Source: Candidatus Paceibacter sp. (GTDB lineage: Bacteria > Patescibacteriota > Minisyncoccia > UBA9983). From it: a stretch of 50,647 nt of DNA. Each line of letters starts with the position of its first letter. Within the stretch, counting starts at the first letter, position 1. The notes under the pieces are model-generated. The model was not told where the DNA came from and searched no databases. It worked only from the letters and a program-made list of their open reading frames with translations. The position numbers and the translations under genes are program-made. Shown here in pieces: positions 379 through 44,657 of this stretch. The stretch lies in assembly GCA_013360865.1 (NCBI GenBank), contig JABWAS010000001.1:1-50647 (forward strand), written 5' to 3'.

Positions 379-2763
379 CTAAGTGATAATTTTCCCTTTC
401 CACCTGTTCTTTCTAACCGCATAATCATCCAGCATATCTTTTATTCCCCTGGCCCCTTGCCCTTTCTTAATCAATTTTGCCAATCCGTAATTGCCAAGTT
501 CCTCCAAACTTTTAATCGTATCCTCGTAACTGCCCGCGACACCAGTAAGTCCGTCTAACATTCTTTCCATCATATCGCCACCCATCTCTACTATCTTGTT
601 AATTGAACCGGTATTAAGATATTTGGCCAAACTGGGCTCGGTAAGTATATTGTAGGCGTTTTTCTCCATATCAGAAGAAGACGCTTTTTTGACAACCCCG
701 GCTTTGGCGCGGTAATCAGCCAGCTCTTTTCTAAGCGCCTGGTAATAATCATTGTCTTTGACGGCGTATTTCTTGTCCAACTTGCCGAATCCTTCCGGAT
801 TTTCCGCGTTGTAAGCATTGGACAGCTTCTCGTTAAGGAATTTCTCAAATCCGCCACCGAGTTCCGTTTTAATGGCCGCGGCCATTGCCTTGCCCAAACC
901 TTCGGGGTCGTTAACATAATCTTTCTCAAGTTTTTCTCTGATTTCGTTGTATTTGGCCTCGTTTTCTTCCTTATAAGTATTGAGTAATATTTCTCTTTCA
1001 GTATCATCAGCTTTGCCTTTAACCAAAAACGGCGCCTGTCTTTCTATGTCCTTAGGCTTAATACCAAGACTCTTGAGGAATTCTTTGGATTTTTCAATAT
1101 CACCCGGAGCCATCTTTTTAATATCCTCTTTTTTGATGGATTCCTGCAGCATAGCGGACGTCTCATAAGGACGGAATGTTCTGTTATACCAACCGCCCTG
1201 CATTTTCTTCAGCTCATCGGCTGTGTACTTGCCGTATTTCTTTTGCTTTTCTTCCACTATTTTACGGCTTTCCGTGGCAATATCAGCCGCCTTTCTGGTG
1301 GCGGCATCGCCGGCAAAAGGTACATATCTGGCTACATTTCCAACTTTACCCATAAAACCTTTGCCAGTGGCAAAATTTTCAGCCATAGGCGCATACCATC
1401 GCCTCGCGCCGCCTTTCGCGCCCCACCAGCCGTATTTGGCAGTCCCTGCCGCCGCCCCCTGCGCCCAGCCGCGGGCCGTGTGCGCCCAGCCGATGGACAT
1501 GCTGGCCGTTTTGCCACCCAGTTGCCTAGCCACCATAAGCGAGGCGAGCATAAGCCCAGCCGCGACGAAGAAATGGAAAAACGGCACCAGAATTGAGCCG
1601 GCGTTCAGGCCAAAAGCCAGCTTTAAATTAGAATTTTCCGTGGTCTGCGTAATGCTCTTTAAAAAGTCGCTGTTTATCAGCTTGGTCACCAAGACAAACA
1701 TAAACAGAAAGGCCGGAGCGAAAAACGATTGTCCTATAAGATAACCCCACCACTGGCTGGAATACTTTTTCATACTGGGCAAGACCACCCCTATAATCAT
1801 TATTGGAGAAAACATCATCACCATCCACAAAACCACCACCCGCACCACGAACATAATCGCCCCGGCAAAAAGCACGAAAGCGGCCAATATGGCCAAAGCC
1901 GCCTCCAACAGCACCGGCAGAGCCAGGGTGAACACAGATTCGCTGAAACCCCCTCCCTCGTTATAAGCTTGTTGGATAACGCCTTCTACGCTGTCCGTGC
2001 TGCCTGTTAACATCTGCTGCGGATTAAATGCGGCCATAAAAACATTGCCCAGGTTTTTCTTCTTGAAATCTCCGTTTATTGTAAGGTCGTTTTTGATGTT
2101 GCCCACCGTCCCCCCTTTGTCCGCGTCAATTTGATTATAAAATTCCCAGGCAAAGACATGGGAGGCGTCTATGACCATTTTGGTAATCAGCATGCTGAAG
2201 TTAACCAGCACTGCCGCTACGATTATACTGGGCAAAACTTTTTTAATACTGGCTCCTCCGTACTGCAAAATCATTGATACTGCCAGATACAGAAGGATGA
2301 AAATAAAAACAAGGTTGATCAAATCCCTTACCATCGTCCAGCCCGTGGCTATCATTATGTTTTTTTCTGTGTCAAAAATTTCGCCGGACAAAGAAAATTC
2401 AATACTGGCGTTGAACAAGCTTGATGCCAGGTTGGTGATGAAGACAGCCGCGGGCAAAATCCAATGGACGGCAACATAGAGAAAAAGATAACTGACGCAC
2501 TTTCCGAATGTTCCTCCGGCTATTCCCATAGTCCAGCCGCAAGGATCCTCTATTTCACCGTCTTTGCTGCCCTTATTTTCATTGACCACGCCAAGTCCTT
2601 TTTCTATGCGATCAACGCGCTCTTCTAAGTCATTTGAGTTATTATTCCCGTTATTCCCTTGCTGCTGGGCGTAAACCATACTTAAACCGGAAAACCCCGC
2701 CGGCGCCAAGGCGGGTACAATCACGGAAATTATTAGCAGATATGTGATTATTTTCTTAAACAT
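379..2763 (-). CDS. large polytopic membrane protein with signal peptide and ~330-aa Lys/Glu-rich C-terminal tail (family unknown)
   Basis: Track ORF 379..2781 begins at a GTG. The in-frame ATG at 2763 gives MFKKIITYLLIISVIVPALAPAGFSGLSMVYAQ, a signal-peptide-like N-terminus. This is followed by a QQQGNNGNNNS low-complexity stretch, roughly 8 or more hydrophobic helices, and a charged tail. Confidence 0.8.
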   Translation of the reverse strand: MFKKIITYLLIISVIVPALAPAGFSGLSMVYAQQQGNNGNNNSNDLEERVDRIEKGLGVVNENKGSKDGEIEDPCGWTMGIAGGTFGKCVSYLFLYVAVHWILPAAVFITNLASSLFNASIEFSLSGEIFDTEKNIMIATGWTMVRDLINLVFIFILLYLAVSMILQYGGASIKKVLPSIIVAAVLVNFSMLITKMVIDASHVFAWEFYNQIDADKGGTVGNIKNDLTINGDFKKKNLGNVFMAAFNPQQMLTGSTDSVEGVIQQAYNEGGGFSESVFTLALPVLLEAALAILAAFVLFAGAIMFVVRVVVLWMVMMFSPIMIIGVVLPSMKKYSSQWWGYLIGQSFFAPAFLFMFVLVTKLINSDFLKSITQTTENSNLKLAFGLNAGSILVPFFHFFVAAGLMLASLMVARQLGGKTASMSIGWAHTARGWAQGAAAGTAKYGWWGAKGGARRWYAPMAENFATGKGFMGKVGNVARYVPFAGDAATRKAADIATESRKIVEEKQKKYGKYTADELKKMQGGWYNRTFRPYETSAMLQESIKKEDIKKMAPGDIEKSKEFLKSLGIKPKDIERQAPFLVKGKADDTEREILLNTYKEENEAKYNEIREKLEKDYVNDPEGLGKAMAAAIKTELGGGFEKFLNEKLSNAYNAENPEGFGKLDKKYAVKDNDYYQALRKELADYRAKAGVVKKASSSDMEKNAYNILTEPSLAKYLNTGSINKIVEMGGDMMERMLDGLTGVAGSYEDTIKSLEELGNYGLAKLIKKGQGARGIKDMLDDYAVRKNRWKGKIIT

Positions 2764-2767
2764 TTTA

Positions 2768-5281
2768 TTAAGGCGAAACACTGCTTGTTTGATCGGCTAA
2801 GGCGCAATCATCCGCATCAACATTCTCGTCTTGGGTGTACTCATCCAGCGCGCAAGTGTATTTTATCACGAGCTTGTCCATCTTCTCTTCAATTTTTCCC
2901 GTTTCTTTGCTGACTTCTTTCCACTCTTTCTCACTATGGGTCTGGTAGGTTTTCTTTTCGGAATCAACCGTGGAGATGTTTATTTCTTCCGAAGCTATTT
3001 CTCCGTCGTTGCCGCGGCAGATAATTTTATAATTCGTCTCTGACGCTATTGAACCGGTAGCCGTTTTTTTGGTGGAGTTTGTTTTTTCCTTGCGGTAATA
3101 TCCCTCGCCGACGAAGAAACCAGAATCCGCTTCCAAAGAGTCCGCTTCCGTTATGTAAGCGCTTTCTTCGTCAAGATTGTCTTTGTCCGAGTAGAGATAG
3201 CAGGAAGACGCATTGGAAGAAAGCCAGTAAATATTGGTGGCTGTGTTAACTTCCACAGTGGTGTCGTCCGACAAAATTTCCAGAGAAGCCGGCTCGGCGT
3301 TGCTATCGGCGGCAGTAAGGATGATTTCCTTATCCATGCGGTTGTTGTCCTGGTCGTAACATCTTATGCCGTAAGTTCTTAATTCATCCGTTTTAAACGG
3401 CGGTGTCACATAGCTTCCACTGGTGCCGATGGTTGTGCCGCGCCAAGTCTTTTCTCCTCCGGTCGGGGAGCATTCTTCGGCGCTTACCGCTTTCCAGTGG
3501 ATTCTGGTTGTAGTGGCAAATCCGTTGGAGGCGTTTTTAACGACCGGATTATTTTCAGCGCTCATTTCCTGGCCGGTTTCTCTATTTTTGTTTTTATTGT
3601 TGCGTTTGTTGTAGTCGTAGCAGTAGTGGTCATCGTCTTTCAAGGTCTTTATTTCCCCTATCCTGGTAGCCATCATCACTTCCTCCACGAAAGAATCAAT
3701 TATCTCCAGCGCCCGGGCGGAAACATCAACGGCGGTTAATCCCAAACTCTGGAAAGTTTCTCCGTCCTCAAAAGTTTGCGTGTCGTATGTGTTTTCATAA
3801 TCACTGATTCTTGGCTCAATATCGTTCGTTATGGCCGTCTGAACGCTGGTTCTGTCATTGTTTACGTCATTAATATCTTTGCCCAGCGGGTCAAGATTTT
3901 TGCCAATTTCTTCAATATCGTCGTCGCAGGTTGAATAATCATAACTTGTGTCGCTGGTGCTGGTGGCGTAAATGCAATTAAGTTTAGCCAAAATCGTTCC
4001 CAAATCCTCTTTTGCCCCGTACAAAGCGTCAGATTGGTCTTCCAAAGACCGACCATAATTTTCTTCCCATTCCGTTATCCGGCCGGTTTGGTTGGAAACG
4101 GATTGCTTTTCCTGGGCTAGTTGCTGGTTCTTGCTTAACTCGCCATAGTGATCGCGATTACTGCCGGAATAATTGGCATCCTTATCGTATCCTAACAAGC
4201 CACCCTCTCCATTACCGCCGGTCACAAGCCAACCCATCATAGTAGTAGCCAAGGTGCCGATAATTTCGTCTATTTCGTCAGCAACCTGGAGTCTTTGTTT
4301 ATCTTTGTCAACGACACTGTTAAGCTGGCTTTGAACAAGTTGCCCCGGGGTTTTTGTTTCCCATTTGGCGCATTTCATGCCGTCTTGAAGCTCTGTTTTT
4401 TTGTAAGGATTATCTGGATCAAGAGGATCGTACTCAACTTCTGTTACCATGTTCGGCACTTCTTCAATACATTTCTTTACCCCGAAAAATCCGGAGTTTA
4501 ATTTAAGCTGGAAGCCGCCCATTTCCACGCTCACCCGCGCGGCGGCGTAAGCGTTATCCGCCGCTTGGACCACACGGCCCACATCATTATTCTTGGGCTT
4601 GGTGCTCATCAGCCACATTAAAAATCCTCCGTTCCTAAAGTCGTTGCCGTATTCGCGGACAATATTGTTTTGGCGGATATTAACATCAATATCCAACCAA
4701 TCGCTTATATCATCCCTATCCGCCATGTTTTGGAAATTATCCACAATGTCGTTGAAAGTACACCTATATTTTGCCCTGTCGGTGCCGGGGAAAAAGAAGT
4801 CCATTTTGATACGCAATGGTCCTATCGGCTCGCACAACCATTCCAAATCCATTTTGTCTATTATGGCCCCGCTGACCTGGTTGGCCGTGTCGCGGAAAAA
4901 CCCTTCCGGGTCGCTAAGAAACATCGGACTCCCTTCAAAACCGTTCTGGATCCAGGTCACCAACGCGTCGCCGAACTGGTCTATGATAACGTTGGCGGCC
5001 GTCCAGGCGAGACCGTCAAGCCATGTTTCTTTGTTGGATAAAACTGTAGTATTACCTGCGGTTGTAGCGGAAGAACCAGCAATCATACTTAAAGTGGCGT
5101 TTCTGGTTATGCTAGTCGGAGAAGAATCCATAAGAATATCGTCCACAATGACATTACCATCAATTCCGGTGGCAAATAATTCTAATGGGGCAAATAAGTT
5201 ATAAAAGACAAAAAAGAAAGAAATGATCGCAAATACATTTCTTCTCATTCTTTTTTTTACTGTGAAAAAATCAGAAAACAT
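2768..5281 (-). CDS. 837-aa N-terminally anchored or secreted protein with two C-terminal beta-sandwich-like repeats (family unknown)
   Basis: Long ORF with one N-terminal hydrophobic helix (VFAIISFFFVFYNLFAPLELFA). Two C-terminal modules share a W-x(6-8)-C ... Y-x-I-x-C pattern (IHWKAVSAEEC...YGIRC; IYWLSSNASSC...YKIIC). An alternative ATG at 5248 is possible. Confidence 0.8.
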   Translation of the reverse strand: MFSDFFTVKKRMRRNVFAIISFFFVFYNLFAPLELFATGIDGNVIVDDILMDSSPTSITRNATLSMIAGSSATTAGNTTVLSNKETWLDGLAWTAANVIIDQFGDALVTWIQNGFEGSPMFLSDPEGFFRDTANQVSGAIIDKMDLEWLCEPIGPLRIKMDFFFPGTDRAKYRCTFNDIVDNFQNMADRDDISDWLDIDVNIRQNNIVREYGNDFRNGGFLMWLMSTKPKNNDVGRVVQAADNAYAAARVSVEMGGFQLKLNSGFFGVKKCIEEVPNMVTEVEYDPLDPDNPYKKTELQDGMKCAKWETKTPGQLVQSQLNSVVDKDKQRLQVADEIDEIIGTLATTMMGWLVTGGNGEGGLLGYDKDANYSGSNRDHYGELSKNQQLAQEKQSVSNQTGRITEWEENYGRSLEDQSDALYGAKEDLGTILAKLNCIYATSTSDTSYDYSTCDDDIEEIGKNLDPLGKDINDVNNDRTSVQTAITNDIEPRISDYENTYDTQTFEDGETFQSLGLTAVDVSARALEIIDSFVEEVMMATRIGEIKTLKDDDHYCYDYNKRNNKNKNRETGQEMSAENNPVVKNASNGFATTTRIHWKAVSAEECSPTGGEKTWRGTTIGTSGSYVTPPFKTDELRTYGIRCYDQDNNRMDKEIILTAADSNAEPASLEILSDDTTVEVNTATNIYWLSSNASSCYLYSDKDNLDEESAYITEADSLEADSGFFVGEGYYRKEKTNSTKKTATGSIASETNYKIICRGNDGEIASEEINISTVDSEKKTYQTHSEKEWKEVSKETGKIEEKMDKLVIKYTCALDEYTQDENVDADDCALADQTSSVSP

Positions 5282-6251
5282 TTTTTTTCACTAAAATTTC
5301 TTTAACGCTTTCAAAACCACCGGAAAATTTTTCCACTTCTTGCTTGTAAATCCTGTATCCCAATAATCCCTTTATGGAATCTTCCGGCGCGGTGGCCATC
5401 AATTTAACAGCCTCACTCATGTTGTTTAGGCCATTGATTAAATCAAGGTGGTCTTTAGCCAATTCTTCCGGCACATCCAATTGTCTTAGCTCAGCCAAAG
5501 CGCCGTTATATATTTCCGTTATTTCCAAAAGTTTTTTTACGTCATTGCTGTAATTAACCCCCTCTTTATTTTTAAGGTTCTCCATTAAACGCCCGAAGAT
5601 GACCACCTCGTTTTCTTTTATTTTTTTGTCGTCAACAAGCAATTTTTTAACAGTTATAGAGTATTTTCTGAGATTTTCTTGCCCATTGTCCGCTATTTTT
5701 ATATTAGAAACGTTGTAAGTATCGGTAGGTCTGTTACTGCTCATCTGCAACATGAGTGATTCTACTAAGCTTTCTTTATCTTTGTTAGTTAATTCACCCT
5801 TCTGCTGTTTAATCAGCAAATACTCCGTTAAAAACTGTTTGGCGTAAGCGGCGGTCATTGTGTTTAAGTCGGCGCCGGAGGAGCTTTTGTTTTGAGCGAT
5901 CAGATCTTCTTTTTGGCCGATTTTATCGTCCGGGCCGGCTTTGAGCGGGTTTCGGTTTTGGGCTATTTCTTCGTTGTCTTCCGCGCCGTCGCCGTCGGTG
6001 TCTTTTTTATTCGGGTCGGTTTTCCAAAGAGTCTCCTCCCAGTCTTTTAAACCGTCGCCGTCGGTGTCGGATTCGTACATAGCTCCGTTTTCCGTCGTGG
6101 TAGCGACGGTCAATATTTTTTGCGCTTCTTCTTTTTTGGCCAGATATTCCAAATCGCCTTTTTCGTACTTGGCATAATAAAACCAGCCGGCAAATATCAG
6201 CAGGATAAAAATTATTAAAAATATGATTTTCTTGCCCGGTAAGTAAGCCAA
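5271..6251 (-). CDS. membrane-anchored protein with two thrombospondin-type-3-like Ca-binding motifs
   Basis: The 326-aa ORF has a TTG start with no nearby ATG and an N-terminal TM helix (IIFLIIFILLIFAGWFYY). It carries DTDGDGLKDWEE and DTDGDGAEDNEE (DxDxDG) motifs. Its stop lies 11 nt inside the next gene if that gene starts at 5281. Confidence 0.7.
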   Translation of the reverse strand: MAYLPGKKIIFLIIFILLIFAGWFYYAKYEKGDLEYLAKKEEAQKILTVATTTENGAMYESDTDGDGLKDWEETLWKTDPNKKDTDGDGAEDNEEIAQNRNPLKAGPDDKIGQKEDLIAQNKSSSGADLNTMTAAYAKQFLTEYLLIKQQKGELTNKDKESLVESLMLQMSSNRPTDTYNVSNIKIADNGQENLRKYSITVKKLLVDDKKIKENEVVIFGRLMENLKNKEGVNYSNDVKKLLEITEIYNGALAELRQLDVPEELAKDHLDLINGLNNMSEAVKLMATAPEDSIKGLLGYRIYKQEVEKFSGGFESVKEILVKKNVF

Positions 6252-6356
6252 AGCGACGGCACTTTGCCGTATGTTAATTATACCTTTTGCGAGAGATAAT
6301 TTCCTTTAAAAATCAGGAAAAAATGTGGATAAGTCGCCCATCAAAAAACTCAACCA

Positions 6357-6377
6357 TGTCAAGGTCTCGCCTTGACA
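6357..6377. repeat. REP-like hairpin, copy 1 (8-bp stem, 5-nt loop)
   Basis: TGTCAAGG-TCTCG-CCTTGACA, 28 nt upstream of the transposase-like start codon. Confidence 0.85.
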
Positions 6378-6405
6378 ACCGCTTCGTTCTTTATAAAATT
6401 AAGCA

Positions 6406-7092
6406 ATGAGCAGAAAAATAAATTTTTCACCGGGAGAAAACTACCATATTTATAATCGTGGTAATGACAAAAGGGTAATTTTTCAAAACAAAGCAGATTA
6501 TGACAGATTTACTGCTTTGTTATACATATGCAATGGAACGAAAGATATAAAATTAAGCGATTATCCGAACATCAAAATGGAAAAACTGCTAGAAATAAAA
6601 AGGGGAGAAACTCTCGTTGATATAGGAGCATATTGTTTAATGCCTAATCATTTTCATTTGCTTATACATGAAAAAACCGAGGGCGGTATAAGTAAGTTTA
6701 TGCAAAAATTGCTCACTGCTTATACGATGTATTTTAATAAGAAAAACGAAAGAACAGGGGTATTATTTGGCGGATTATTTAAAGCAACCCATGTCAACGA
6801 AGACCGTTATTTAAAATATCTCCTCTCGTACATTCATTTAAACCCAATTAAGCTCATTGAGCCAGCATGGAAAGAAACAGGTATCAAAAACAAAAAAGGG
6901 GCTGATCTTTTTCTTAAATCTTACATTTATTCCAGTTTTCTGGATTTCACTGTGGAAAAAAGGAAAGAGCTTGTTATTCTTAATAAGAACCAGTTTCCTG
7001 AATACTTTGAAAATTTTAAAGAGTTCGAAGTTTTTATTGAAAATTGGCTTATGTTTTCCAACGACAACCCCACTGTCAAGGCGAGACCTTGA
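6406..7092 (+). CDS. IS200-like / REP-associated tyrosine transposase (RayT-like, Y1 HUH family)
   Basis: HUH motif in CLMPNHFHLLIHE. C-terminal Tyr motif YLLSYIHLNPIK, typical of the YxxxNP helix in RayT/transposase_17 proteins. 228 aa with an ATG start. Confidence 0.8.
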   Translation: MSRKINFSPGENYHIYNRGNDKRVIFQNKADYDRFTALLYICNGTKDIKLSDYPNIKMEKLLEIKRGETLVDIGAYCLMPNHFHLLIHEKTEGGISKFMQKLLTAYTMYFNKKNERTGVLFGGLFKATHVNEDRYLKYLLSYIHLNPIKLIEPAWKETGIKNKKGADLFLKSYIYSSFLDFTVEKRKELVILNKNQFPEYFENFKEFEVFIENWLMFSNDNPTVKARP

Positions 7093-7097
7093 CAGTG
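7071..7097. repeat. REP-like hairpin, copy 2 (inverted; 11-bp stem); likely also a bidirectional terminator
   Basis: CACTGTCAAGG-CGAGA-CCTTGACAGTG. It overlaps the convergent stop codons of the transposase-like gene (7090-7092) and rsmA (7076-7078). Confidence 0.85.
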
Positions 7098-7936
7098 TTT
7101 AAACACTTCCAGTCTTCCAGGTCTAAATCTTCGGCTCTCGCTTTTTCAGCTATGCCGCAGGCGGCAAAATTTTCTTTTTTCGCGCCTAGGTTGCTCAAAA
7201 GCAACTTCCTTTTGTGGGCGAAGCCTTTTCTGACCGTTTCAAAAAAATTTTTCTCATCCAAATCTTTAAAAAATTCTTTGGAAATGCCGGAGATTCTGAT
7301 AACCGCCGAATCCACTTTTGGCTGGGGAATGAAATTGCCCTTGGAAACTATCCTTATTATCTCCGGCCGGCCGTAAGTTTTAACGCTTATGGAAAGAAGG
7401 CTCTCTTTGACGGGAAAAGAAACTTGCCTTCTGGAAAAATTTCCTCCTTCGTCAGTTTTGTAAAAAGACGAGTTTCTTTTCCCGCACTTTTTTCCCAAAC
7501 CAATAATCCTATCCGCCACCTCTTTTTGGATCATCAAGACCATCAAAACTGGCTGAGGTTCCTCGCTCAAAAATTTTCGCAAAAAAAATGAGGTAATATA
7601 ATAAGGCAGGTTGGCAATAATTTTATAACCGCCAATGTCAAGGTTGAACCTTGACATTGGGTCAAATGCCAAAATATCGCCTGAAATAACATCCAGCCTC
7701 CCGTTGTTAATTTCAGCGGAAAATTTTTCTTTTAAAAATTCTACAAGCTCCTCGTCTTTCTCTACCGCTATCACTTTTTTAGCCCTTTGCAGAAGCAACT
7801 CCGTCAAAACACCCTTTCCTGGGCCGACTTCCAGAACAGTATCATCGGGGCTAACTTTCCCCGCCGCGACTATTTCTTCGGCGATTTTTTGGGAATTGAG
7901 AAAATTCTGCCCAAGTGATTTTTTAGCTTTCAGCAT
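7076..7936 (-). CDS. rsmA: 16S rRNA (adenine1518/1519-N6) dimethyltransferase RsmA/KsgA
   Basis: SLGQNFL motif, SAM-binding VLEVGPGKGVLT, and NLPYYITS motif. 286 aa. Confidence 0.9.
   Translation of the reverse strand: MLKAKKSLGQNFLNSQKIAEEIVAAGKVSPDDTVLEVGPGKGVLTELLLQRAKKVIAVEKDEELVEFLKEKFSAEINNGRLDVISGDILAFDPMSRFNLDIGGYKIIANLPYYITSFFLRKFLSEEPQPVLMVLMIQKEVADRIIGLGKKCGKRNSSFYKTDEGGNFSRRQVSFPVKESLLSISVKTYGRPEIIRIVSKGNFIPQPKVDSAVIRISGISKEFFKDLDEKNFFETVRKGFAHKRKLLLSNLGAKKENFAACGIAEKARAEDLDLEDWKCLNTVKVSP
7632..7660. repeat. REP-like hairpin, copy 3, inside the rsmA coding sequence
   Basis: CCAATGTCAAGG-TTGAA-CCTTGACATTGG (12-bp stem). Same TGTCAAGG/CCTTGACA arms as copies 1 and 2. It is translated in-frame as part of ...PMSRFNLDIGG... 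Confidence 0.8.
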
Positions 7937-8074
7937 AAAAAATAAATTCGAAATCCTAATATCGAAATTCGAAACAAATTCTAATTTTTTAAATTTTAAA
8001 TTCTAAACTTTTTGTCATTTGAATTTTAAATTTTGATATTGTTTCGGATTTCGTGCTTCGCGCTTCGGATTTAA

Positions 8075-10018
8075 TCAGCCATATCTTATCACTTCTTCCG
8101 GCGGTTCGCCCCGAAACTCCTCCATTTTGTACAAATAGTCGGGGATGTCGGACAAAAAGCGGGACGGCATATTCATCTGCCGGCCGCCGTAAATCATGCG
8201 CGAAACGGCGAAAGACAAAAACAGTTTTTCTTTTGCTCTTGTCACCGCCACGTAAAAAAGCCTCCTTTCCTCCTCATCCCTCTCCCTGTCGCGCGAGCCC
8301 ATGCCGGAATGTGGGAACAACCCCTCTTCCAACCCGACGATGAAAACGTTTTTAAACTCAAGCCCTTTGGCGGCGTGCGCCGTCATCAGCCGCACTTTTT
8401 CCTCTTTATTTTCTATCGCGTCCTGCGCGCTCATCAAAGAAGCGTCTTCCAATAATTTCTGGACGCCCTCCGGCTCCGGCAGGTTGTCGTATCTGGTGGC
8501 GATGCTCACCAACTCCTTCAGGTTTTCCAGCCGTTCCTTGTCGGTACTATCTCCATTTTCCAGAAGTTCTTCCAAGCCCGATTTTTTAATGATAAAACTT
8601 ATCGCCGCCGAGGCTTTTTCTTTTCCGGTGTTTTCTTTAATGGAGTCCAGCAGGGCGAAAAAGTCCTCAAACTTTTTCTCCATCGCCGCCGGAAGTTTTT
8701 TGCCGGAAAATTTGTTCAACAAGGAAACTTTGCCTATCCCCCGCGACGGAACGTTGACCGCCCTTTTGACGCTCAATAAATCCTCTCTGTTTAACGCCGC
8801 CCGCAGGTAAGCCAGCACGTCTTTGATTTCCTTTCTTTCGTAAAACTGGGTGCCCAGCATTTGGTAGGCTATGCCGTGCTTGAGGCAGGCCTCCTCAAAC
8901 ACCCGCGACTGGAAGTTAGCGCGAAACAACACGGATATTTCCGAGGGCGAGCCGCCCCGCGCCAAAATTTCTTTTATCTTATGGGCGACAAACTCCGCCT
9001 CCTCGTACTCGCCCATCGCCTCAAACAGCGATATCTCGGCGCCTTTTTGGTTTTTAGTGTAAAGACCTTTCGGCTTGCGGACTTTGTTCTTCTCTATGAT
9101 TTTTGCCGCCGCTTCCAGGATGTTTTGAGTGGAACGGTAATTTTCTTCCAGCGCCACAGCCACGTGTTCCGGATAGTCCTTCTCAAAATTGATGATGTTG
9201 CGGAAGTCGGCCCCGCGGAAAGCGTAGATACACTGGTCCATATCGCCCACGGCGCAGATGTTTTTGTGTCTGGCGGCAAGAATCTTGGACAGCTCGTACT
9301 GGCTTTTGTTGGTGTCTTGATATTCGTCTATGAGGATATAGTCCCACAAATTTTGATAATAATCCCTTACTTCCGCGTCTTTTTTGAGCAGAAAAACCAC
9401 CTTGGAAACAAGGTCGTCAAAGTCCAGGGCTTTATGCTCTCGCAGATTTTCTTCGTACTTTTTCCAGATTTTTCCCAACACGGAGCCGAAGAAATCGGAA
9501 CCGGCTTCGGCAAAATATGATTCGGCGTCAAACAAATCCCCTTTCTGCCGCGAGATGAGCGACTGCATTTTGTTGGGCTGGAACTGCTTCGGGTCAATGC
9601 TTAATTCTTTAATCGCCTCTTTGACCATATCAAGACTGTCTTCTTTGCTTAAAATGGAAAAGTTGGCCGGAACGCCGACTTTGCTCCCGTGCTTTTTTAA
9701 AATATAAACCCCGAGCGAATGGAACGTGCTCACAAATGGATGCTGCCGTTTCCAAGGACCGTCCTTGGAATTGCCCACAACCTGAATTTTTTCCAGCAAT
9801 CCAAACACCCTCTCCCTCATCTCTCCGGCCGCTTTGTTGGTAAAGGTGATGGCCAAAATTTTTTCCGGCGCTACGCCTTGGCTTGCCATGTGGGCAATGC
9901 GGTGGCTGATGCTTTTGGTCTTGCCCGAACCGGCTCCGGCCAGCACCAAAAGCGGTCCGTCTTTATGCAAAACGACTTTCTTCTGCGCTTCATTGAGCCC
10001 GTTCAATAAAAAATCCAT
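8075..10018 (-). CDS. pcrA: ATP-dependent DNA helicase, UvrD/PcrA family
   Basis: Walker A AGAGSGKT, LNEAQ motif, DEYQDT, and C-terminal VTRAK motif. 647 aa. Confidence 0.9.
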   Translation of the reverse strand: MDFLLNGLNEAQKKVVLHKDGPLLVLAGAGSGKTKSISHRIAHMASQGVAPEKILAITFTNKAAGEMRERVFGLLEKIQVVGNSKDGPWKRQHPFVSTFHSLGVYILKKHGSKVGVPANFSILSKEDSLDMVKEAIKELSIDPKQFQPNKMQSLISRQKGDLFDAESYFAEAGSDFFGSVLGKIWKKYEENLREHKALDFDDLVSKVVFLLKKDAEVRDYYQNLWDYILIDEYQDTNKSQYELSKILAARHKNICAVGDMDQCIYAFRGADFRNIINFEKDYPEHVAVALEENYRSTQNILEAAAKIIEKNKVRKPKGLYTKNQKGAEISLFEAMGEYEEAEFVAHKIKEILARGGSPSEISVLFRANFQSRVFEEACLKHGIAYQMLGTQFYERKEIKDVLAYLRAALNREDLLSVKRAVNVPSRGIGKVSLLNKFSGKKLPAAMEKKFEDFFALLDSIKENTGKEKASAAISFIIKKSGLEELLENGDSTDKERLENLKELVSIATRYDNLPEPEGVQKLLEDASLMSAQDAIENKEEKVRLMTAHAAKGLEFKNVFIVGLEEGLFPHSGMGSRDRERDEEERRLFYVAVTRAKEKLFLSFAVSRMIYGGRQMNMPSRFLSDIPDYLYKMEEFRGEPPEEVIRYG

Positions 10019-12324: not shown

Positions 12325-12582
12325 CTACTCATAAATATCATGATTGCCGATTGAATAAAATCTAACTGTGTTTTTGTTTAAAAATTCAAAAATTATTCTA
12401 TAATCATAATTTATGGAAAAAGACCAAAATCCAATAAGTTCACCGTGGAGTTTATGTGTTTTTAGTTTCGGATCAAACGGATCTTTTCTGAAAACTTTTT
12501 CTTTCCTTTCCGCCAAATCTTGAACATCCGCCGGTAATTTCTTGTATTCCCTGCTGAACCTCGGCAGATATATAATTTTCAT
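12325..12582 (-). CDS. RelE/ParE-family type II toxin
   Basis: 85 aa. Fold signature ...KLHGELIGFWSFSINYDYRIIFEF...VRFYSIGNHDIY. The upstream RHH gene ends 6 nt before this gene starts. Confidence 0.75.
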   Translation of the reverse strand: MKIIYLPRFSREYKKLPADVQDLAERKEKVFRKDPFDPKLKTHKLHGELIGFWSFSINYDYRIIFEFLNKNTVRFYSIGNHDIYE

Positions 12583-12588
12583 AAAAAA

Positions 12589-12804
12589 TTATCTCAGGTC
12601 GTGCAACGATCTTAATACCTTTCCTTTCCCCGCCTCAAATTCTTTTTTGGCTTCTTTTAATTCTTTGGCTAATTTGTGTGTGTTCCACGCTCGTATCGCA
12701 TGCCTTATAAACTCGCTCTTGGTGGCGAATTTGCCGGATTTAACTTCTTTTTCCACTAAATCCGCCATGCTTTTAGGCAACGAAATATTTATTACGCTTC
12801 TCAT
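12589..12804 (-). CDS. ribbon-helix-helix (CopG/ParD-like) antitoxin
   Basis: 71 aa. N-terminal INISLPKSMADLVEKEV...KSEFIRHAIR is an RHH pattern. Paired with the RelE-like gene. Confidence 0.7.
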   Translation of the reverse strand: MRSVINISLPKSMADLVEKEVKSGKFATKSEFIRHAIRAWNTHKLAKELKEAKKEFEAGKGKVLRSLHDLR

Positions 12805-24664: not shown

Positions 24665-24735
24665 TCGGGGCATCCAGATTTGAACTGGAACTAAGTCCTC
24701 CCAAAGGACTCGTGCTACCGTTACACTATGCCCCG
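24665..24735 (-). tRNA. tRNA-Pro (anticodon UGG)
   Basis: Acceptor CGGGGCA/TGCCCCG, anticodon arm AGTCC-TTTGGGA-GGACT, and T arm TCCAG-TTCAAAT-CTGGA. No encoded CCA. Confidence 0.9.
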
Positions 24736-25621: not shown

Positions 25622-25695
25622 TGCGCCCGGTAGGACTTGAACCTACAACCGCTTGGTTCGAAGCCAAGTACTCTATCCAATTGAGCTACGGGCGC
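25622..25695 (-). tRNA. tRNA-Arg (anticodon UCG)
   Basis: Acceptor GCGCCCG/CGGGCGC, anticodon arm CTTGG-CTTCGAA-CCAAG, and T arm GTAGG-TTCAAGT-CCTAC. No encoded CCA. Confidence 0.9.
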
Positions 25696-32850: not shown

Positions 32851-32897
32851 AAAACATCAAGGCGTCGCCTTTCTCCAAGGCGACGCCTTGATGTTTT
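32851..32897. repeat. 21-bp-stem hairpin, gpmI-flanking copy 1
   Basis: AAAACATCAAGGCGTCGCCTT-TCTCC-AAGGCGACGCCTTGATGTTTT. It lies between the divergent rny and gpmI starts, so it is not positioned as a terminator. Confidence 0.85.
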
Positions 32898-34528: not shown

Positions 34529-34571
34529 AACATCAAGGTGTCGCCTTGCTGCAAGGCGACACCTTGATGTT
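34529..34571. repeat. hairpin, gpmI-flanking copy 2 (also positioned as a bidirectional terminator)
   Basis: AACATCAAGGTGTCGCCTT-GCTGC-AAGGCGACACCTTGATGTT. Versus copy 1, the C..G pair is replaced by T..A, which is compensatory. Confidence 0.85.
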
Positions 34572-38006: not shown

Positions 38007-39389
38007 ATGACTTTGGATTACGAAAAATTATGGAAAGATGTTTTATCTGAGGTTGAGTTGAATATATCCAAAGCTAATTTCTCCACTTGGTTTAAAGACA
38101 CTTATATCGGAAAATACGACAACGGGGAAGTGGCGATCCATGTCCCCAACAGCTTCGCCCATGAATGGCTCTCCACTAAATTTAACAAATTAATAGCCGG
38201 GATCATCCGGAACATGGATTCCAGCATCAGGCACATAGACTACATTATTGTTTCCCAGCCGAAAAATCAGGCAAAACAAACCACAATTCAACAAAACAAG
38301 CCCTTAAAAACAATACTGAGCAATGAGGAACAACTTGGTTTTAATGAATTTTACACCGACTCCGAGTCAAACCTTAATCCTAAATACACTTTTGATTCTT
38401 TTATTGTGGCGCCTTTCAATGAGGTGGCGCACGCGGCGGCGCTAACCATCTCCAAAAACATAGGTAATGTTTACAACCCGCTTTTTGTTTACGGCGGCGT
38501 CGGTCTTGGTAAAACTCATCTTCTTCAGGCAATAGGCAATGAAATAAGAAAAAACAATCAAAACACAAAAGTTCACTACCTTACTTCGGAAAATTTCGCC
38601 AACGACTACGTCAGCTCTATCCAAAACAAAAACATCAACATTTTTAAGGAGAAATATAGAAAATACAGCCTTCTGATAATTGACGATATTCAGTTTTTTT
38701 CCGACAAACTAAAAATTCAGGAGGAATTTTTCCATGTTTTTAACTCACTTTACAATAGCGGCAACCAGATAGTTTTTTCTTCCGACCGCCCGCCGCAATA
38801 TATTGTCGGTTTGGAAGACAGGTTGCGCTCGCGATTTGAAGGAGGAATGATGGTTGATATATCCCAACCGGAATACGAGGAAAGATTGGCTATTTTAAAG
38901 GCTAAAATAAACACCAAAGGCTTCCCGTTATCCGATGAAATAATAGAATTTACCGCCTCTAATATTAAAGAAAACATTCGCGAGCTTGAAGGCGCGCTTA
39001 ATTCCATCATCGGCCAATCAAAAATCAGAGGCCGAATGCTTTCTTTAGAGGAAGTGGAGAAAATAATAAGTAAAAAAGCGAAGCCGGTGCGCGCTATAAC
39101 CGCCGAACAATTGATAAAAACAATATCAATCTATTATAACATTGAGGAAAAAAACCTGACGGAAAAAACAAGAAGGAAGGAGATAGTCAAACCGCGGCAA
39201 ATAACAATGTATTTATTAAGAAACGACTTAAGCACGTCTTATCCTCATATCGGCCGGAGACTAGGGCAAAAAGATCACACCACCGCCATCCACGCTTTTA
39301 AGAAAATAAGTGAAGATATTAAACGTGATAAAAAACTGGAGCAGGAGATAAATAACATAAGAGAGATGATGTTTAAAAACTGTGTATAA
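38007..39389 (+). CDS. dnaA: chromosomal replication initiator DnaA
   Basis: AAA+ Walker A GGVGLGKTHL and a C-terminal DNA-binding domain (GRRLGQKDHTTAIHA). 460 aa. Confidence 0.95.
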   Translation: MTLDYEKLWKDVLSEVELNISKANFSTWFKDTYIGKYDNGEVAIHVPNSFAHEWLSTKFNKLIAGIIRNMDSSIRHIDYIIVSQPKNQAKQTTIQQNKPLKTILSNEEQLGFNEFYTDSESNLNPKYTFDSFIVAPFNEVAHAAALTISKNIGNVYNPLFVYGGVGLGKTHLLQAIGNEIRKNNQNTKVHYLTSENFANDYVSSIQNKNINIFKEKYRKYSLLIIDDIQFFSDKLKIQEEFFHVFNSLYNSGNQIVFSSDRPPQYIVGLEDRLRSRFEGGMMVDISQPEYEERLAILKAKINTKGFPLSDEIIEFTASNIKENIRELEGALNSIIGQSKIRGRMLSLEEVEKIISKKAKPVRAITAEQLIKTISIYYNIEEKNLTEKTRRKEIVKPRQITMYLLRNDLSTSYPHIGRRLGQKDHTTAIHAFKKISEDIKRDKKLEQEINNIREMMFKNCV

Positions 39390-39631
39390 ATATGTTGGTA
39401 AAATTGTGGAAATTTACTGGATAAATTGTTTGTAATTTAAAGATTAAAAACAAAGATAAATTAATCATTAAGTTATTATTAATTTATCAACAATTATTCA
39501 CAGTTTTATCCACAGTGTTGATATCTTTTAACCTTTAATTTAAGCCATGAAACAAACTTATCTACATTTCCACAGGTATAATAATAGTAATAAATTTATT
39601 TAATTAAATAATTCTTATTAAGATAATTAGG
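39390..39631. promoter_or_regulatory. probable oriC core: DnaA-box cluster plus AT-rich unwinding region
   Basis: Perfect TTATCCACA at 39506-39514. Near-boxes TTATCTACA (39558-39566), TGTGGAAAT and CTGGATAAA (about 39403-39425). Long AT runs. Confidence 0.65.
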
Positions 39632-40732
39632 ATGAAATTCACTTGTTCTAAAAATGAATTAAAAGAAGCGGTCCAGATTTGCGAGAAAAACACGGGTAAA
39701 AATTTAAACCTGGTTGTTTTAAGCAACATCCTTCTTGATTGCGCCGACAAAATTTTAAAACTGACAGCCACTAATCTTGAAACCGCCGTAGAAGTGGAAA
39801 TTCCAACAAAAACAGAAAAAGAAGGTAAAATAACTATCCCAGGCTCGGTTTTAAGCGGTTTTTTATCCAACAACTCCGTAAATGAAGAAATTACTTTGGA
39901 ATCGCAAAATAACAACCTTATTATTTCCACATCTAATACATCTATAACCATCAAAGGACAGCCGGCCGATGATTTCCCCACATTACCAATAATCAAGTCG
40001 GAAGATGAGTCGGTGATTAATTGCGCTGATTTTGTTTCCGGTTTGAAGTCGGTCTGGTATTCCTGTTCCAACTCAATTATTAAACCGGAAATAGCCTCGG
40101 TTTTAATTCAATCCAATAAATCGGCGAGTTTAATATTCGCGGCCACCGACTCGTTCCGGTTGGCGGAAAAAAGATTTGATTATAATCTAAACAACTTTGG
40201 GAAGGTTTTACTGCCGTTTAAATCAGTCGCTGAAATACTAAGGATTTTTGACGGTGTCTTTGATAAATTAAAAATAAAAACAAATAAAAACCAAATAAAC
40301 ATAGAGTCGGATAATATTAAATTCATTTCACGTTTGATTGATGGTGTTTTTCCTGATTACCAACAGATTTTACCTAAAAAATTTACCGCCGACGTAGTGG
40401 TGAAAAATAATGATTTTACCAACGCTCTGAAATCAACCGCCATGTTTTCCGGAAAGTTGAATGAGTTAGTTTTCTCTTTAAATCCGGAGGAAAATTTTAT
40501 TGTTTTAAAAACAGCCAATAATGAAATAGGCGACTGTGTGGTTAAAATACCGGCTAAAATTACCGGCGAAAAAATAAAAATAACTTTTAACCATAGATAC
40601 ATCCAGGACTGTCTTCAGGCTGTAAACAACAACGATATTTTACTGCGTTTTTGCGGCGAAATGAAGCCATTGCTGATCACTAGTTTAAACAACAACACTT
40701 TCCAATATTTAGTGATGCCAATGAGTATTTAG
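39632..40732 (+). CDS. dnaN: DNA polymerase III beta sliding clamp
   Basis: 366 aa with three-domain clamp architecture. Typical MKFTCSKNEL...ATDSFRLA motifs. Confidence 0.95.
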   Translation: MKFTCSKNELKEAVQICEKNTGKNLNLVVLSNILLDCADKILKLTATNLETAVEVEIPTKTEKEGKITIPGSVLSGFLSNNSVNEEITLESQNNNLIISTSNTSITIKGQPADDFPTLPIIKSEDESVINCADFVSGLKSVWYSCSNSIIKPEIASVLIQSNKSASLIFAATDSFRLAEKRFDYNLNNFGKVLLPFKSVAEILRIFDGVFDKLKIKTNKNQINIESDNIKFISRLIDGVFPDYQQILPKKFTADVVVKNNDFTNALKSTAMFSGKLNELVFSLNPEENFIVLKTANNEIGDCVVKIPAKITGEKIKITFNHRYIQDCLQAVNNNDILLRFCGEMKPLLITSLNNNTFQYLVMPMSI

Positions 40733-40767
40733 TTAAAAGTTTATAAAGTTCATAAATTTATTGAATT

Positions 40768-40807
40768 CTACTTTATAAACTTTCTACTTTATAAACTTTA
40801 TAAACTT
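40768..40807 (+). repeat. tandem 16-mer CTACTTTATAAACTTT x2 plus a partial unit, ending 3 nt before an ATG
   Basis: Units at 40768-40783 and 40784-40799, then ATAAACTT. A related tandem lies at 44583-44614. Confidence 0.8.
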
Positions 40808-44582: not shown

Positions 44583-44614
44583 AAAGTTTATAAAGTTGAA
44601 AGTTTATAAAGTTG
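44583..44614 (-). repeat. tandem 16-mer CAACTTTATAAACTTT x2 (minus-strand reading) abutting the ruvC ATG
   Basis: Plus-strand AAAGTTTATAAAGTTG x2 at 44583-44614. A further GAACTTTATAAACTTTATGAACTTTT lies at 44644-44669. Confidence 0.8.
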
Positions 44615-44657
44615 AAAGTTTTGATTTTAGATTTTAACTTTACGAACTTTATAAACT

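What the first reader, a model, noticed from the sequence alone, without database searches (positions are those of the whole stretch)
6324..7097. REPtron-like unit: RayT/IS200-like Y1 transposase gene bracketed by exact inverted 21-bp hairpins
The ORF carries the HUH motif (HFHLLI) and a YxxxNP tyrosine helix. It is flanked by TGTCAAGGTCTCGCCTTGACA (6357) and its perfect reverse complement (7073). Each copy is itself a hairpin. This is the architecture described for REP-associated tyrosine transposases (REPtrons) in Proteobacteria, not for a classical IS with terminal inverted repeats and target-site duplications. More hairpins with the same arms, or sharing the octamer CGCCTTGA, occur at 7632, 32851 and 34529. 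This suggests an active or recently active REP system. A perfect DnaA box (TGTGGATAA, 6324-6332) also lies just outside the left hairpin.
Basis: partly seen in the sequence, partly recalled or inferred. Interest (0 to 1): 0.65.

Follow-up and report, generated by a model that had tools for sequence, protein, structure and literature searches.

The report
Hairpin-flanked Y1 transposase-like gene (REPtron-like)
A tyrosine (HUH) nuclease gene in a tiny-genome Patescibacteria organism sits between two copies of its own DNA hairpin, and the same layout recurs across this bacterial group, extending the known "REP-associated transposase" idea to a lineage and hairpin type where I found no description of it.

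Summary
TGTCAAGGTCTCGCCTTGACA (6357-6377) and its exact reverse complement (7074-7094; full stem 7071-7097) bracket a 228-aa Y1/HUH ORF (6406-7092). Related hairpins lie at 7632-7660 (in rsmA), 9750-9770 (in uvrD), 32851-32897 and 34529-34571. CAAGG-N5-CCTTG occurs 7 times against 0.09 expected.

The layout is family-wide. In 55 of 79 Patescibacteria loci the homologous gene has the same stem on both sides, against 0 of 1111 control pairs. The stems differ between loci around a near-invariant AGG-N5-CCT core.

The protein is not an IS200 transposase (YIHLNP, not Y---Q). It is also not a canonical RayT: NCBIfam gives 36.9 bits against a cut-off of 80, and the hairpins have no GTAG foot. Its motifs and profile match TnpA-Y1 subclass 2.1 (the 'TIRYT' type), which was reported to lack REPs.

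Most likely this is a REPtron/TIRtron-like unit in which a conserved nuclease (dN/dS about 0.08) acts on low-copy cognate hairpins. The left hairpin carries the gene's -35 box, and the right one supplies stop codons to both convergent genes.

I found no sign of recent activity. The DnaA box is real but isolated; oriC lies near 39.5 kb. I rate it a new variant of a known kind, of moderate interest.

The parts
6324..6332 (-). Isolated perfect DnaA box (TTATCCACA on the - strand), 24 nt upstream of the left hairpin. Probably incidental.
   Evidence: one of 8 perfect boxes in the window; a perfect box within 150 nt upstream of the gene in only 4 of 82 loci.
6357..6377 (+). Left cognate hairpin TGTCAAGG-tctcg-CCTTGACA (8-bp stem, 5-nt loop). 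Its right arm holds the -35 hexamer.
   Evidence: -7.9 kcal/mol, z = -5.7. Family-wide position is 30-55 nt upstream of the ATG.
6372..6399 (+). Predicted sigma-70-type promoter TTGACA-N16-TAAAAT. The implied transcription start is at or next to the ATG at 6406, giving a leaderless mRNA.
   Evidence: 11 of 12 consensus matches, the best in 6200-7800. Similar TATAAT-like boxes lie 6-10 nt before the ATG in many family loci (read by eye). No transcript data.
6406..7092 (+). Y1/HUH tyrosine nuclease gene, 228 aa. HUH at 6649-6657 (H82-F-H84). Catalytic-Tyr motif YIHLNP at 6829-6846. Invariant SS at residues 176-177. The last residues (TVKARP*) are encoded by the right hairpin.
7071..7097 (+). Right cognate hairpin CACTGTCAAGG-cgaga-CCTTGACAGTG (11-bp stem). 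The core 7074-7094 is the exact reverse complement of the left hairpin. It supplies the TGA stop of the Y1 gene (7090-7092) and of the convergent rsmA (7076-7078).
   Evidence: -12.1 kcal/mol. RsmA ends ...TVKVSP*, and the L007 RsmA ends ...VKVSP* as well.
7076..7936 (-). rsmA/ksgA (16S rRNA dimethyltransferase), convergent with the Y1 gene and overlapping it by 17 nt. It hosts a solo hairpin.
   Evidence: TIGR00755 197 bits; the same overlap in the relative L007.
7632..7660 (.). Solo hairpin CCAATGTCAAGGTT-g-AACCTTGACATTGG inside rsmA. It encodes PMSRFNLDIG in a variable loop. The same extended palindrome recurs in unrelated metagenome contigs.
9750..9770 (.). Solo hairpin TTCCAAGG-accgt-CCTTGGAA inside uvrD. 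It encodes SKDGPWK within a 5-residue insertion relative to the L007 UvrD.
32851..32897 (.). Hairpin doublet (REPIN-like 21+5+21 perfect palindrome) in the rny-gpmI spacer. It is absent from the same spacer in the relatives L103 and L105.
   Evidence: -26.5 kcal/mol.
34529..34571 (.). Hairpin doublet (21+1+21 perfect palindrome) between the convergent gpmI and clpP. It is absent in L103, and in L105 the two genes overlap so there is no spacer.
   Evidence: -24.4 kcal/mol.

Best explanation
This is a REPtron/TIRtron-type unit. The gene encodes a single-domain-core Y1 HUH endonuclease of TnpA-Y1 class 2, closest to subclass 2.1 (the 'TIRYT' type). It sits between two copies of its cognate DNA hairpin.

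Inferred mechanism, by analogy with E. coli TnpA-REP/RayT and IS608 TnpA: the protein binds the hairpin when the DNA is single-stranded (at a replication fork or as an extruded cruciform). It reads the near-invariant loop-proximal AGG/CCT pairs plus a lineage-specific outer stem. It then cuts and rejoins DNA next to the hairpin through Tyr142 and the His82/His84 metal site. Over evolutionary time this seeds single hairpins and head-to-head doublets elsewhere in the genome, including in frame inside genes.

What is shown:
- The catalytic motifs and fold are conserved.
- The gene is under strong purifying selection.
- Left, right and often internal hairpins co-vary, gene by gene.
- Dispersed copies exist, and relatives have empty sites at the same spacers.

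Further inferences:
- The left hairpin contains the gene's -35 box (leaderless promoter), so binding by the protein would also repress its own transcription.
- The right hairpin has been absorbed as the stop region of both convergent genes.
- The unit looks like a long-resident, vertically inherited element rather than an actively jumping insertion sequence.
For: Enzyme:
- Pfam Y1_Tnp scores 38.7 bits, above the gathering score of 23.
- H82, H84, Y142 and the motif IHLNP are invariant in 41 homologues.
- The AF2 model has pLDDT 88. Its best PDB match is RayT bound to a REP hairpin (4ER8, E = 2.9e-6), followed by IS608 and ISDra2 TnpA.
- All 41 members hit NCBIfam REP_Tyr_transpos; 4 hit the IS200 model, marginally.
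- hhalign against a 231-aa Pseudomonas plasmid protein with subclass-2.1 motifs gives 99% probability, E = 4.5e-18. Against E. coli RayT it gives E = 0.01.
- dN/dS is about 0.08 against the 76%-identical orthologue, with synonymous sites near saturation (pS 0.675). Both flanking stems are nevertheless identical in the two genomes.

Hairpin-gene coupling:
- The same stem lies on both sides in 55 of 79 loci, against 0 of 1111 control pairs.
- Stems differ between loci, and the AGG-N5-CCT core is near-invariant.
- A third hairpin lies inside the gene at +120..+215 in 20 of 82 loci. In 10 of them the inner stem matches the flanks.
- Same-genome paralogues are only 50-59% identical, and each has its own stem.

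Dispersal:
- The window has 6 sites, against 0.09 matches expected by chance.
- The doublets at 32851 and 34529 are absent from the same spacers in relatives.
- Of 141 exact TGTCAAGG-N5-CCTTGACA matches in metagenome contigs, 38 flank a family gene and 60 are solo.

Promoter: TTGACA-N16-TAAAAT starts in the hairpin arm.

Literature frame: PMC6006769, PMC3733652, PMC5581495, PMC8266576.
Against: - There is no biochemical or transcript evidence for this family.
- Hairpin copy number is low: about one site per 8 kb here, and roughly 1.6 clearly solo hairpins per gene-flanking hairpin (about 3 per flanked gene) in the metagenome sample. Classic REP systems have hundreds.
- The canonical REP hallmark, a 5' GT[AG]G foot, is absent.
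- The NCBIfam RayT equivalog cut-off is missed.
- Loops are direct in 23 loci and inverted in 27, so 'inverted REPs' is not a rule.
- All hairpin sites are fixed in every strain contig sampled, so no ongoing activity is seen.
- The fixed positions at the -35 box and at the stop codon fit a purely regulatory role equally well.
- 24 of 79 loci showed no shared perfect-stem pair.
- The window's doublets differ from the flank hairpins in the outer stem, so they may belong to another paralogue elsewhere in the genome.
Confidence: 0.6

Rival explanations
1. It is an autonomous IS200-like insertion sequence. The whole 741-bp unit (hairpin-gene-hairpin, 7097-6357+1) is the mobile element, and the hairpins are its left and right ends, as in IS200/IS608.
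For: - The size and layout resemble IS200 (a gene of about 0.7 kb with subterminal hairpins).
- Family genes sit in many different genomic contexts. Only 2 of 81 other loci share the rsmA neighbourhood.
- There are several paralogues per genome.
- Four loci (L007, L052, L061, L067) carry 15-24-nt direct repeats just outside the hairpins. The maximum in controls was 9. This suggests insertion of the unit as a block.
- 23 loci have direct-oriented loops, as expected for IS200/IS605 ends.
Against: - The Y motif is Y---NP, not Y---Q. The HUH motif is NHFH, not DH[VI]H. The protein has 228 aa, not about 150 (against Table 1 of PMC6006769).
- The window protein has no NCBIfam IS200 hit.
- Same-genome copies are 50-59% identical, not about 99%.
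- The gene is at the same junction with rsmA in a relative whose synonymous sites are nearly saturated.
- IS200/IS605 elements make no target duplications, so the direct repeats do not fit that mechanism either.
- Solo hairpins and doublets exist without the gene.
Confidence: 0.2
2. The hairpins are ordinary regulatory palindromes of a domesticated gene: an operator overlapping the promoter, and a 3' stem-loop that stabilises or ends the transcript. The protein has a host function unrelated to moving them. Other copies are unrelated regulatory sites or chance relatives.
For: - The left hairpin overlaps the predicted -35 box at a fixed distance from a leaderless start.
- The right hairpin sits at the stop codon.
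- Copy number is low.
- The protein is strongly conserved, like a housekeeping gene.
- Bertels et al. (PMC5581495) describe RAYT groups without REPIN association.
Against: - The right hairpin has no T-run and overlaps two coding ends, so it is not a standard terminator (one search lists none there).
- The same stem also occurs inside the gene, and inside unrelated genes (rsmA, uvrD), where operators and terminators make no sense.
- Doublets are inserted in spacers that are empty in relatives.
- Stems co-vary with each paralogue, which implies sequence-specific recognition by, or copying with, that gene.
Confidence: 0.15
3. The inverted 21-mers are a chance or assembly artefact with no biological link to the ORF.
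For: None beyond the small size of the repeat.
Against: - 3 matches against 0.01 expected.
- The arrangement is identical in independent assemblies from many sludge metagenomes.
- The layout is conserved in 55 of 79 loci from other species.
Confidence: 0.01

Closest known systems
TnpA-Y1 subclass 2.1 (Quentin et al. 2018, PMC6006769), equivalent to RAYT Group 1 (Bertels et al. 2017, PMC5581495) and to most 'TIRYT/TIRtron' units (Di Nocera et al. 2013, PMC3733652)
   Same: - The motif signature matches that listed for 2.1: NH[YF]H (here NHFH), Y[IV]HLNP (here YIHLNP), an SS motif in a C-terminal tail (S176, S177 invariant), and length about 238 aa (here 228).
- The profile matches a 2.1-type Pseudomonas plasmid protein at E = 4.5e-18.
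- The gene is flanked by terminal inverted repeats that are self-complementary. Di Nocera et al. noted this for some TIRtrons, with moderately abundant repeat families and dimers.
- Copy number per genome is low and the copies are diverged.
   Different: - Quentin et al. found no REP-like sequences next to 2.1 genes. Here 70% of loci have cognate hairpins.
- The TIR consensus GGGGWSAS is absent. The conserved core is AGG-N5-CCT.
- No DnaA_C/HTH-like C-terminal domain was detectable.
- The 'W' motif reads FK rather than W[EQ]/FQ.
- There is an insertion of about 23 residues after helix A that often holds an in-frame hairpin.
- The host phylum is Patescibacteria.
Canonical REPtron: E. coli rayT (TnpA-REP, subclass 2.2) with REP/BIME sequences; REPIN-RAYT systems of Pseudomonas
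   Same: - A Y1 HUH gene with the Y---NP motif, bracketed by cognate palindromes (inverted in this window).
- Each paralogue has its own palindrome family.
- Doublets in inverted orientation resemble REPINs.
- It is the best fold match (4ER8).
- The gene is low-copy, vertically kept and under purifying selection.
   Different: - The NCBIfam equivalog cut-off is not reached (36.9 against 80 bits), and hhalign against RayT gives E = 0.01.
- There is no GT[AG]G foot.
- The stems are short and perfect, without a bulge.
- There are tens at most rather than hundreds of copies.
- Many copies are intragenic.
- Half the family has direct rather than inverted flanking loops.
IS200/IS605 family (IS200, IS608, ISDra2)
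   Same: - The same fold and catalytic chemistry.
- Subterminal hairpins at both ends of a unit of about 0.7 kb.
- Hairpin recognition on single-stranded DNA is the expected mode.
   Different: - The Y---Q motif, the 150-aa core-only protein, near-identical multicopy elements and tnpB partners are all absent here.
Subclass 2.4 tnpA-REP genes with in-frame REP insertions (PMC6006769), and Rickettsia palindromic elements inserted in coding genes (the latter from my own knowledge)
   Same: - Palindromic elements sit in frame inside the transposase-like gene itself (20 of 82 loci, at about codons 41-72).
- They also sit inside housekeeping genes (rsmA and uvrD here; 41 of 60 solo copies in metagenome contigs lie in long ORFs).
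- They occupy variable surface loops.
   Different: - The protein subclass and the hairpin sequence are different.
- The elements here are much shorter (21-29 nt) than RPEs.

Membership tests
Y1 HUH endonuclease superfamily (Pfam PF01797 Y1_Tnp) | Profile match above the curated cut-off | tested here: met
   38.7 bits against a gathering score of 23. All 41 aligned homologues match.
Y1 HUH endonuclease superfamily (Pfam PF01797 Y1_Tnp) | HUH metal-binding motif and a single catalytic tyrosine on a C-terminal helix | tested here: met
   H82-F-H84 and Y142 are invariant in 41 sequences. The predicted fold matches RayT and IS608/ISDra2 TnpA.
Y1 HUH endonuclease superfamily (Pfam PF01797 Y1_Tnp) | Cleavage and strand transfer on hairpin-bearing single-stranded DNA | not testable with these tools
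   Needs purified protein and oligonucleotide substrates.
IS200/IS605 transposase and IS (subclass 1.1) | Y motif Y---Q with HUH DH[VI]H; core-only protein of about 150 aa | tested here: not met
   YIHLNP, NHFH, 228 aa, compared with Table 1 of PMC6006769.
IS200/IS605 transposase and IS (subclass 1.1) | Match to the NCBIfam transpos_IS200 model | tested here: not met
   No hit for the window protein at E <= 0.1. 4 of 41 relatives hit marginally (best E = 0.028).
IS200/IS605 transposase and IS (subclass 1.1) | Several near-identical copies per genome | tested here: not met
   Four same-genome pairs are 50-59% identical. Second copies within 10 kb are 34-56% identical to the window protein. No complete genome was surveyed.
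Canonical RAYT / TnpA-REP REPtron | Class-2 Y motif Y---NP | tested here: met
   Y142-IHL-N146-P147 is invariant.
Canonical RAYT / TnpA-REP REPtron | NCBIfam NF047646 REP_Tyr_transpos equivalog cut-off (80 bits) | tested here: not met
   36.9 bits. It is the best or only NCBIfam hit for all 41 members, but always below the cut-off.
Canonical RAYT / TnpA-REP REPtron | Gene flanked by at least two cognate palindromes in inverted orientation | tested here: met
   In the window they are exact reverse complements. In the family, 55 of 79 loci have same-stem pairs: 27 inverted, 23 direct, 5 other.
Canonical RAYT / TnpA-REP REPtron | REP carries a 5' GT[AG]G tetranucleotide at the hairpin foot | tested here: not met
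   2 of 220 hairpin sides, against 4.5% of random 12-mers.
Canonical RAYT / TnpA-REP REPtron | Palindrome family dispersed in many extragenic copies across the genome | tested here: inconclusive
   Six sites in 50 kb, against 0.09 matches expected by chance. Relatives have empty sites. In the metagenome sample 60 copies are solo and 38 flank a gene. But copy number is low, many copies are intragenic, and no complete genome could be counted.
TnpA-Y1 subclass 2.1 / TIRYT-TIRtron | Motif signature NH[YF]H, Y[IV]HLNP, SS in the C-terminal tail, about 238 aa | tested here: met
   NHFH, YIHLNP, S176-S177 invariant, 228 aa, against Table 1 of PMC6006769. The 'W' motif is FK rather than FQ.
TnpA-Y1 subclass 2.1 / TIRYT-TIRtron | Closer in profile to 2.1 proteins than to other subclasses | tested here: met
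   hhalign gives 99% probability, E = 4.5e-18 against a Pseudomonas plasmid protein with NHVH/WE/YIELNP/SS. It gives 4% probability, E = 0.01 against E. coli RayT. Caveat: I assigned that reference to 2.1 by its motifs, not with the authors' HMMs. Only two subclasses were compared.
TnpA-Y1 subclass 2.1 / TIRYT-TIRtron | C-terminal HTH-like domain (Bac_DnaA_C, HTH_23 or HTH_28 similarity) | tested here: not met
   No such Pfam hit in any of 41 members at E <= 1. The C-terminal 80 residues are helical and conserved, but unassigned.
TnpA-Y1 subclass 2.1 / TIRYT-TIRtron | Flanking terminal inverted repeats (many share GGGGWSAS) | tested here: inconclusive
   Flanking inverted 21-mers are present. 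The GGGGWSAS motif is absent from the consensus, which is C-a-AGG-N5-CCT-t-G.

The most novel reading that the evidence does not exclude
Patescibacteria (CPR) carry their own phylum-wide REPIN/RAYT-like partnership. A strongly conserved subclass-2.1-like Y1 nuclease family (thousands of members, several diverged paralogues per roughly 1-Mb genome) is paired with a new hairpin class (AGG-N5-CCT core, no GTAG). Each paralogue keeps its private stem at three fixed places: in its own -35 box, in frame at about codons 41-72, and at its stop codon. The enzyme would therefore be wired to regulate itself, and would seed short in-frame palindromes into housekeeping genes of ultra-reduced genomes. This would be a persistent, vertically inherited replicator-host system in a lineage, and a protein subclass, where none has been described.
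Probability: 0.35. Interest if true: 0.7.

Novelty: new variant of a known kind. Interest (0 to 1): 0.5.

Why it matters
REP/RAYT systems are the textbook case of a domesticated transposase living with its own miniature repeats. So far they are documented mainly in Proteobacteria and a few other phyla. The largest RAYT-like subclass (2.1) was reported to have no associated palindromes.

Here a 2.1-like family that is very abundant in Patescibacteria shows a clean gene-by-gene pairing with cognate hairpins, and the recognition core is conserved. That gives a simple, testable substrate prediction for an uncharacterised enzyme family.

It also explains recurring short palindromes inside CPR housekeeping genes and at gene ends. 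Finally, it flags a source of annotation artefacts: C-terminal tails such as ...VKVSP* and stop codons that are supplied by the hairpin.

Tried and rejected
- Sequence search of the PDB with the family profile gave only E of about 0.3 to ISDra2 TnpA. The fold search was needed.
- Rfam at gathering threshold found only three tRNAs in the window and nothing at the hairpins.
- Intrinsic-terminator reading of the right hairpin: no T-run, and the consensus scan does not list it.
- An origin or DnaA-regulated element at 6324: rejected. The box is isolated. The DnaA-box cluster lies between dnaA and dnaN. Only 4 of 82 family loci have a box upstream.
- The octamer CGCCTTGA as a marker: not significant on its own.
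- A conserved guide or cleavage motif beside the hairpin foot: none found. Information content is about zero outside the stem.
- Phage or plasmid carriage: 14 plasmid records and 1 phage record match, all below 35% identity.
- Laying contigs from four sludge runs on 5300-8100 gave no variants or joints at the hairpins. It could not estimate hairpin copy number, because partial 21-nt matches are not reliably laid. It revealed a high-depth AT-rich repeat at 7937-8075 instead.
- Target-site duplications at the window's own hairpins: none seen by eye at 6357/7097, 32851 or 34529.
- A genome-wide count in the source genome was not possible.
- Literature search for RAYT/REPIN/TnpAREP together with Patescibacteria, CPR or Parcubacteria found nothing relevant.
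Full report
**Observation.** The 21-mer TGTCAAGGTCTCGCCTTGACA lies at 6357-6377. A third copy with a different loop lies at 7636-7656. With up to 2 mismatches the pattern gives 3 matches against 0.01 expected. The right copy has an 11-bp perfect stem, 7071-7097. Between the two lies an ORF of 228 aa (6406-7092) with N-H82-F-H84 and Y142-IHLNP. The ORF passes Pfam Y1_Tnp at 38.7 bits, gathering score 23.

Their arms resemble the 6357 hairpin (TCAAGGT.TCGCCTTG). The shared octamer alone is not significant. The hairpin format is: CAAGG-N5-CCTTG occurs 7 times at 6 sites against 0.09 expected. This adds a site at 9750-9770. All of these fold stably as single-stranded DNA, z = -3.9 to -13.8.

**Source and surroundings.** The window belongs to contig JAKLKK010000004.1 of MAG GCA_023150695.1. 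The same DNA is found in many activated-sludge runs. The nearest named homologues are Parcubacteria/Patescibacteria.

The Y1 gene lies between a TSP3-repeat protein gene and rsmA. It converges on rsmA and overlaps it by 17 nt. The right hairpin supplies the TGA stop and the last residues of both proteins...TVKARP* for the Y1 protein and ...TVKVSP* for RsmA.

**The protein family.** More than 7,788 clusters of 216-255 aa match, at 55-62% identity across several Patescibacteria orders. H82, H84, Y142-IHLNP and S176-S177 are invariant.
- The AF2 model (pLDDT 88) is closest to E. coli RayT bound to a REP hairpin (4ER8, E = 2.9e-6), then to IS608 and ISDra2 TnpA.
- All 41 members tested hit NCBIfam REP_Tyr_transpos. 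They do so below its 80-bit cut-off: the window protein scores 36.9 bits, and the best E-value among members is 6e-16. Only 4 touch the IS200 model, with best E = 0.028.
- Against Table 1 of Quentin et al. (PMC6006769), the motifs NHFH, YIHLNP, the SS tail and the length fit subclass 2.1. That subclass corresponds to Bertels Group 1 and to most 'TIRYT' proteins.
- A profile comparison agrees. It gives E = 4.5e-18 against a Pseudomonas plasmid protein with 2.1 motifs, and E = 0.01 against E. coli RayT.
- The HTH-like tail described for 2.1 was not detected.
- dN/dS against the 76%-identical orthologue is about 0.08, with synonymous sites near saturation.

**Hairpin-gene coupling is family-wide.** In the relative L007 (GW2011_GWB1_43_8) the orthologue sits at the same rsmA junction. 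It is flanked by TGTCAAGG-cgaaa-CCTTGACA on both sides, with direct loops. A second paralogue on the other side of rsmA has its own ATCAAGG-type hairpins.

Across 80 loci from species-representative genomes, a de novo scan finds one hairpin 30-55 nt before the ATG and another at the stop codon. The same stem occurs on both sides in 55 of 79 testable loci: 27 inverted loops, 23 direct, 5 other. None of 1,111 control window pairs shows this.

Stems differ between loci; examples are TGCGTTAGG, CTACATAAGT and TCCCCTAAAC. The loop-proximal AGG-N5-CCT is nearly invariant. Same-genome paralogues are only 50-59% identical, and each has its own stem.

In 20 of 82 genes a further hairpin lies in frame at +120..+215. 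It encodes QGxxL-type peptides, and in 10 genes its inner stem matches the flanks. This falls in an insertion of about 23 residues relative to the 2.1 reference. The window gene lacks this internal copy.

No GT[AG]G foot is present: 2 of 220 hairpin sides.

**Dispersal and mobility.** Hairpin density is 1.8 per kb at the gene against 0.25 per kb elsewhere. AGG-type hairpins are still the commonest class more than 1 kb away, with 30 in about 1 Mb.

In the window, solo copies sit in variable loops of RsmA and UvrD. The UvrD copy lies within a 5-residue insertion relative to L007. The two doublets flank gpmI. The orthologous spacers in relatives with about 70%-identical GpmI lack them, and in L105 gpmI and clpP even overlap. 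All strain contigs of this population carry them. These are therefore insertions on a between-species time scale, not recent events.

It gave 141 matches:
- 38 flank a family gene.
- 60 are solo with at least 800 nt visible on both sides, and 41 of these lie in long ORFs.
- 43 are near contig ends and cannot be classified.

Extended forms such as CCAATGTCAAGG...CCTTGACATTGG recur in this set.

Four loci show 15-24-nt direct repeats just outside the hairpins, against a maximum of 9 in controls. I cannot explain these with the known Y1 mechanism.

**Regulatory overlay.** The right arm of the left hairpin is a perfect TTGACA. Sixteen nt further on lies TAAAAT, ending 6 nt before the ATG. Similar -10 boxes just before the ATG are visible in many family loci. 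This predicts a leaderless transcript whose -35 box lies inside the protein's presumed binding site. That is an inference only.

**Interpretation.** The best reading is a REPtron/TIRtron-type unit of a subclass-2.1-like Y1 nuclease with cognate, low-copy hairpins (confidence 0.6). The rivals are:
- An autonomous IS200-like element (0.2). It is favoured by the varied genomic contexts and the direct repeats. It is disfavoured by the motifs, the diverged paralogues and the conserved junction.
- Purely regulatory palindromes (0.15). This is disfavoured by the intragenic copies, the doublets, the empty sites and the paralogue-specific co-variation.

The DnaA box at 6324 is real but isolated. Four boxes cluster at 39484-39566 between dnaA and dnaN. 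Only 4 of 82 family loci have a box upstream.

**Novelty.** REPtrons, TIRtrons and in-frame REP insertions are all described (PMC3733652, PMC6006769). I found no paper linking them to Patescibacteria/CPR. Subclass 2.1 was reported to lack REP-like neighbours (PMC6006769). I therefore rate this a new variant of a known kind, with interest 0.5.

Noticed in passing
window 38007-40732 (spacer 39390-39631): dnaA (38007-39389) and dnaN (39632-40732), with four DnaA boxes (at most 1 mismatch) at 39484-39566. This is the likely chromosomal origin. There are 8 perfect TTATCCACA boxes in the whole window, and 27 matches at up to 1 mismatch against 10.7 expected.
   Followed up: partly
window 7937-8075: In the AT-rich spacer between rsmA and uvrD, Logan contigs from four sludge runs break. 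Word depth jumps to 525-687 against 43-49 beside it in the two deepest runs (X1, X13), with smaller jumps in the other two. This is a high-copy or low-complexity repeat. It is not repeated elsewhere in the window.
   Followed up: partly
L103 2770-3000 (relative's rny-gpmI spacer): A different inverted repeat of about 110 nt (GGTGGCGGAGTGAAGCGAAATTTT...AAAATTTCGCTTCACTCCGCCACC) sits at the position where the window has its 47-nt doublet. L105 has neither. This spacer seems to be a recurrent landing site for palindromic elements.
   Followed up: no
L007 9930-9950 and 10688-10707; also L052, L061, L067: Imperfect direct repeats of 15-24 nt lie immediately outside the two hairpins of the unit. In L007 the left copy duplicates the 3' coding end of rsmA. 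These look like target duplications, which Y1 transposition is not known to make.
   Followed up: partly
window 40726-40793 and 44592-44667: Arrays of an AT-rich motif (AAAGTTTATAAAGTT / ACTTTATAAACTT) in direct and inverted copies in two spacers. Function unknown.
   Followed up: no
window 23178-23231: A GC-rich palindrome with 27-nt arms (89% complementary, no loop) next to a tRNA gene (23085-23155, - strand). Two further tRNAs lie at 24665-24735 and 25622-25695.
   Followed up: no
window 379-6251 and L001 1-4031 (upstream of the window): Two very large proteins without Pfam hits (800 and 837 aa) and a TSP3-repeat protein lie downstream of a type-IV-secretion-like set (VirB4/TraG-like ATPase, TraC-like, PrgI) and a bAvd/23S_rRNA_IVP-type gene. 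The block is syntenic in the relative L007.
   Followed up: no
window about 12325-12804 (L001 15920-16399): A YafQ/HigB-like toxin and an RHH antitoxin pair. It is absent at the corresponding place in L007, which has an ArsA/ParA-like ATPase there.
   Followed up: no
window 7076-7097 and the RsmA C-terminus: The last residues of RsmA (VKVSP*), and its stop codon, are encoded by the hairpin in both the window and L007, but not in L035 (which ends ...SKKIG). The palindrome has remodelled the end of a housekeeping protein.
   Followed up: yes
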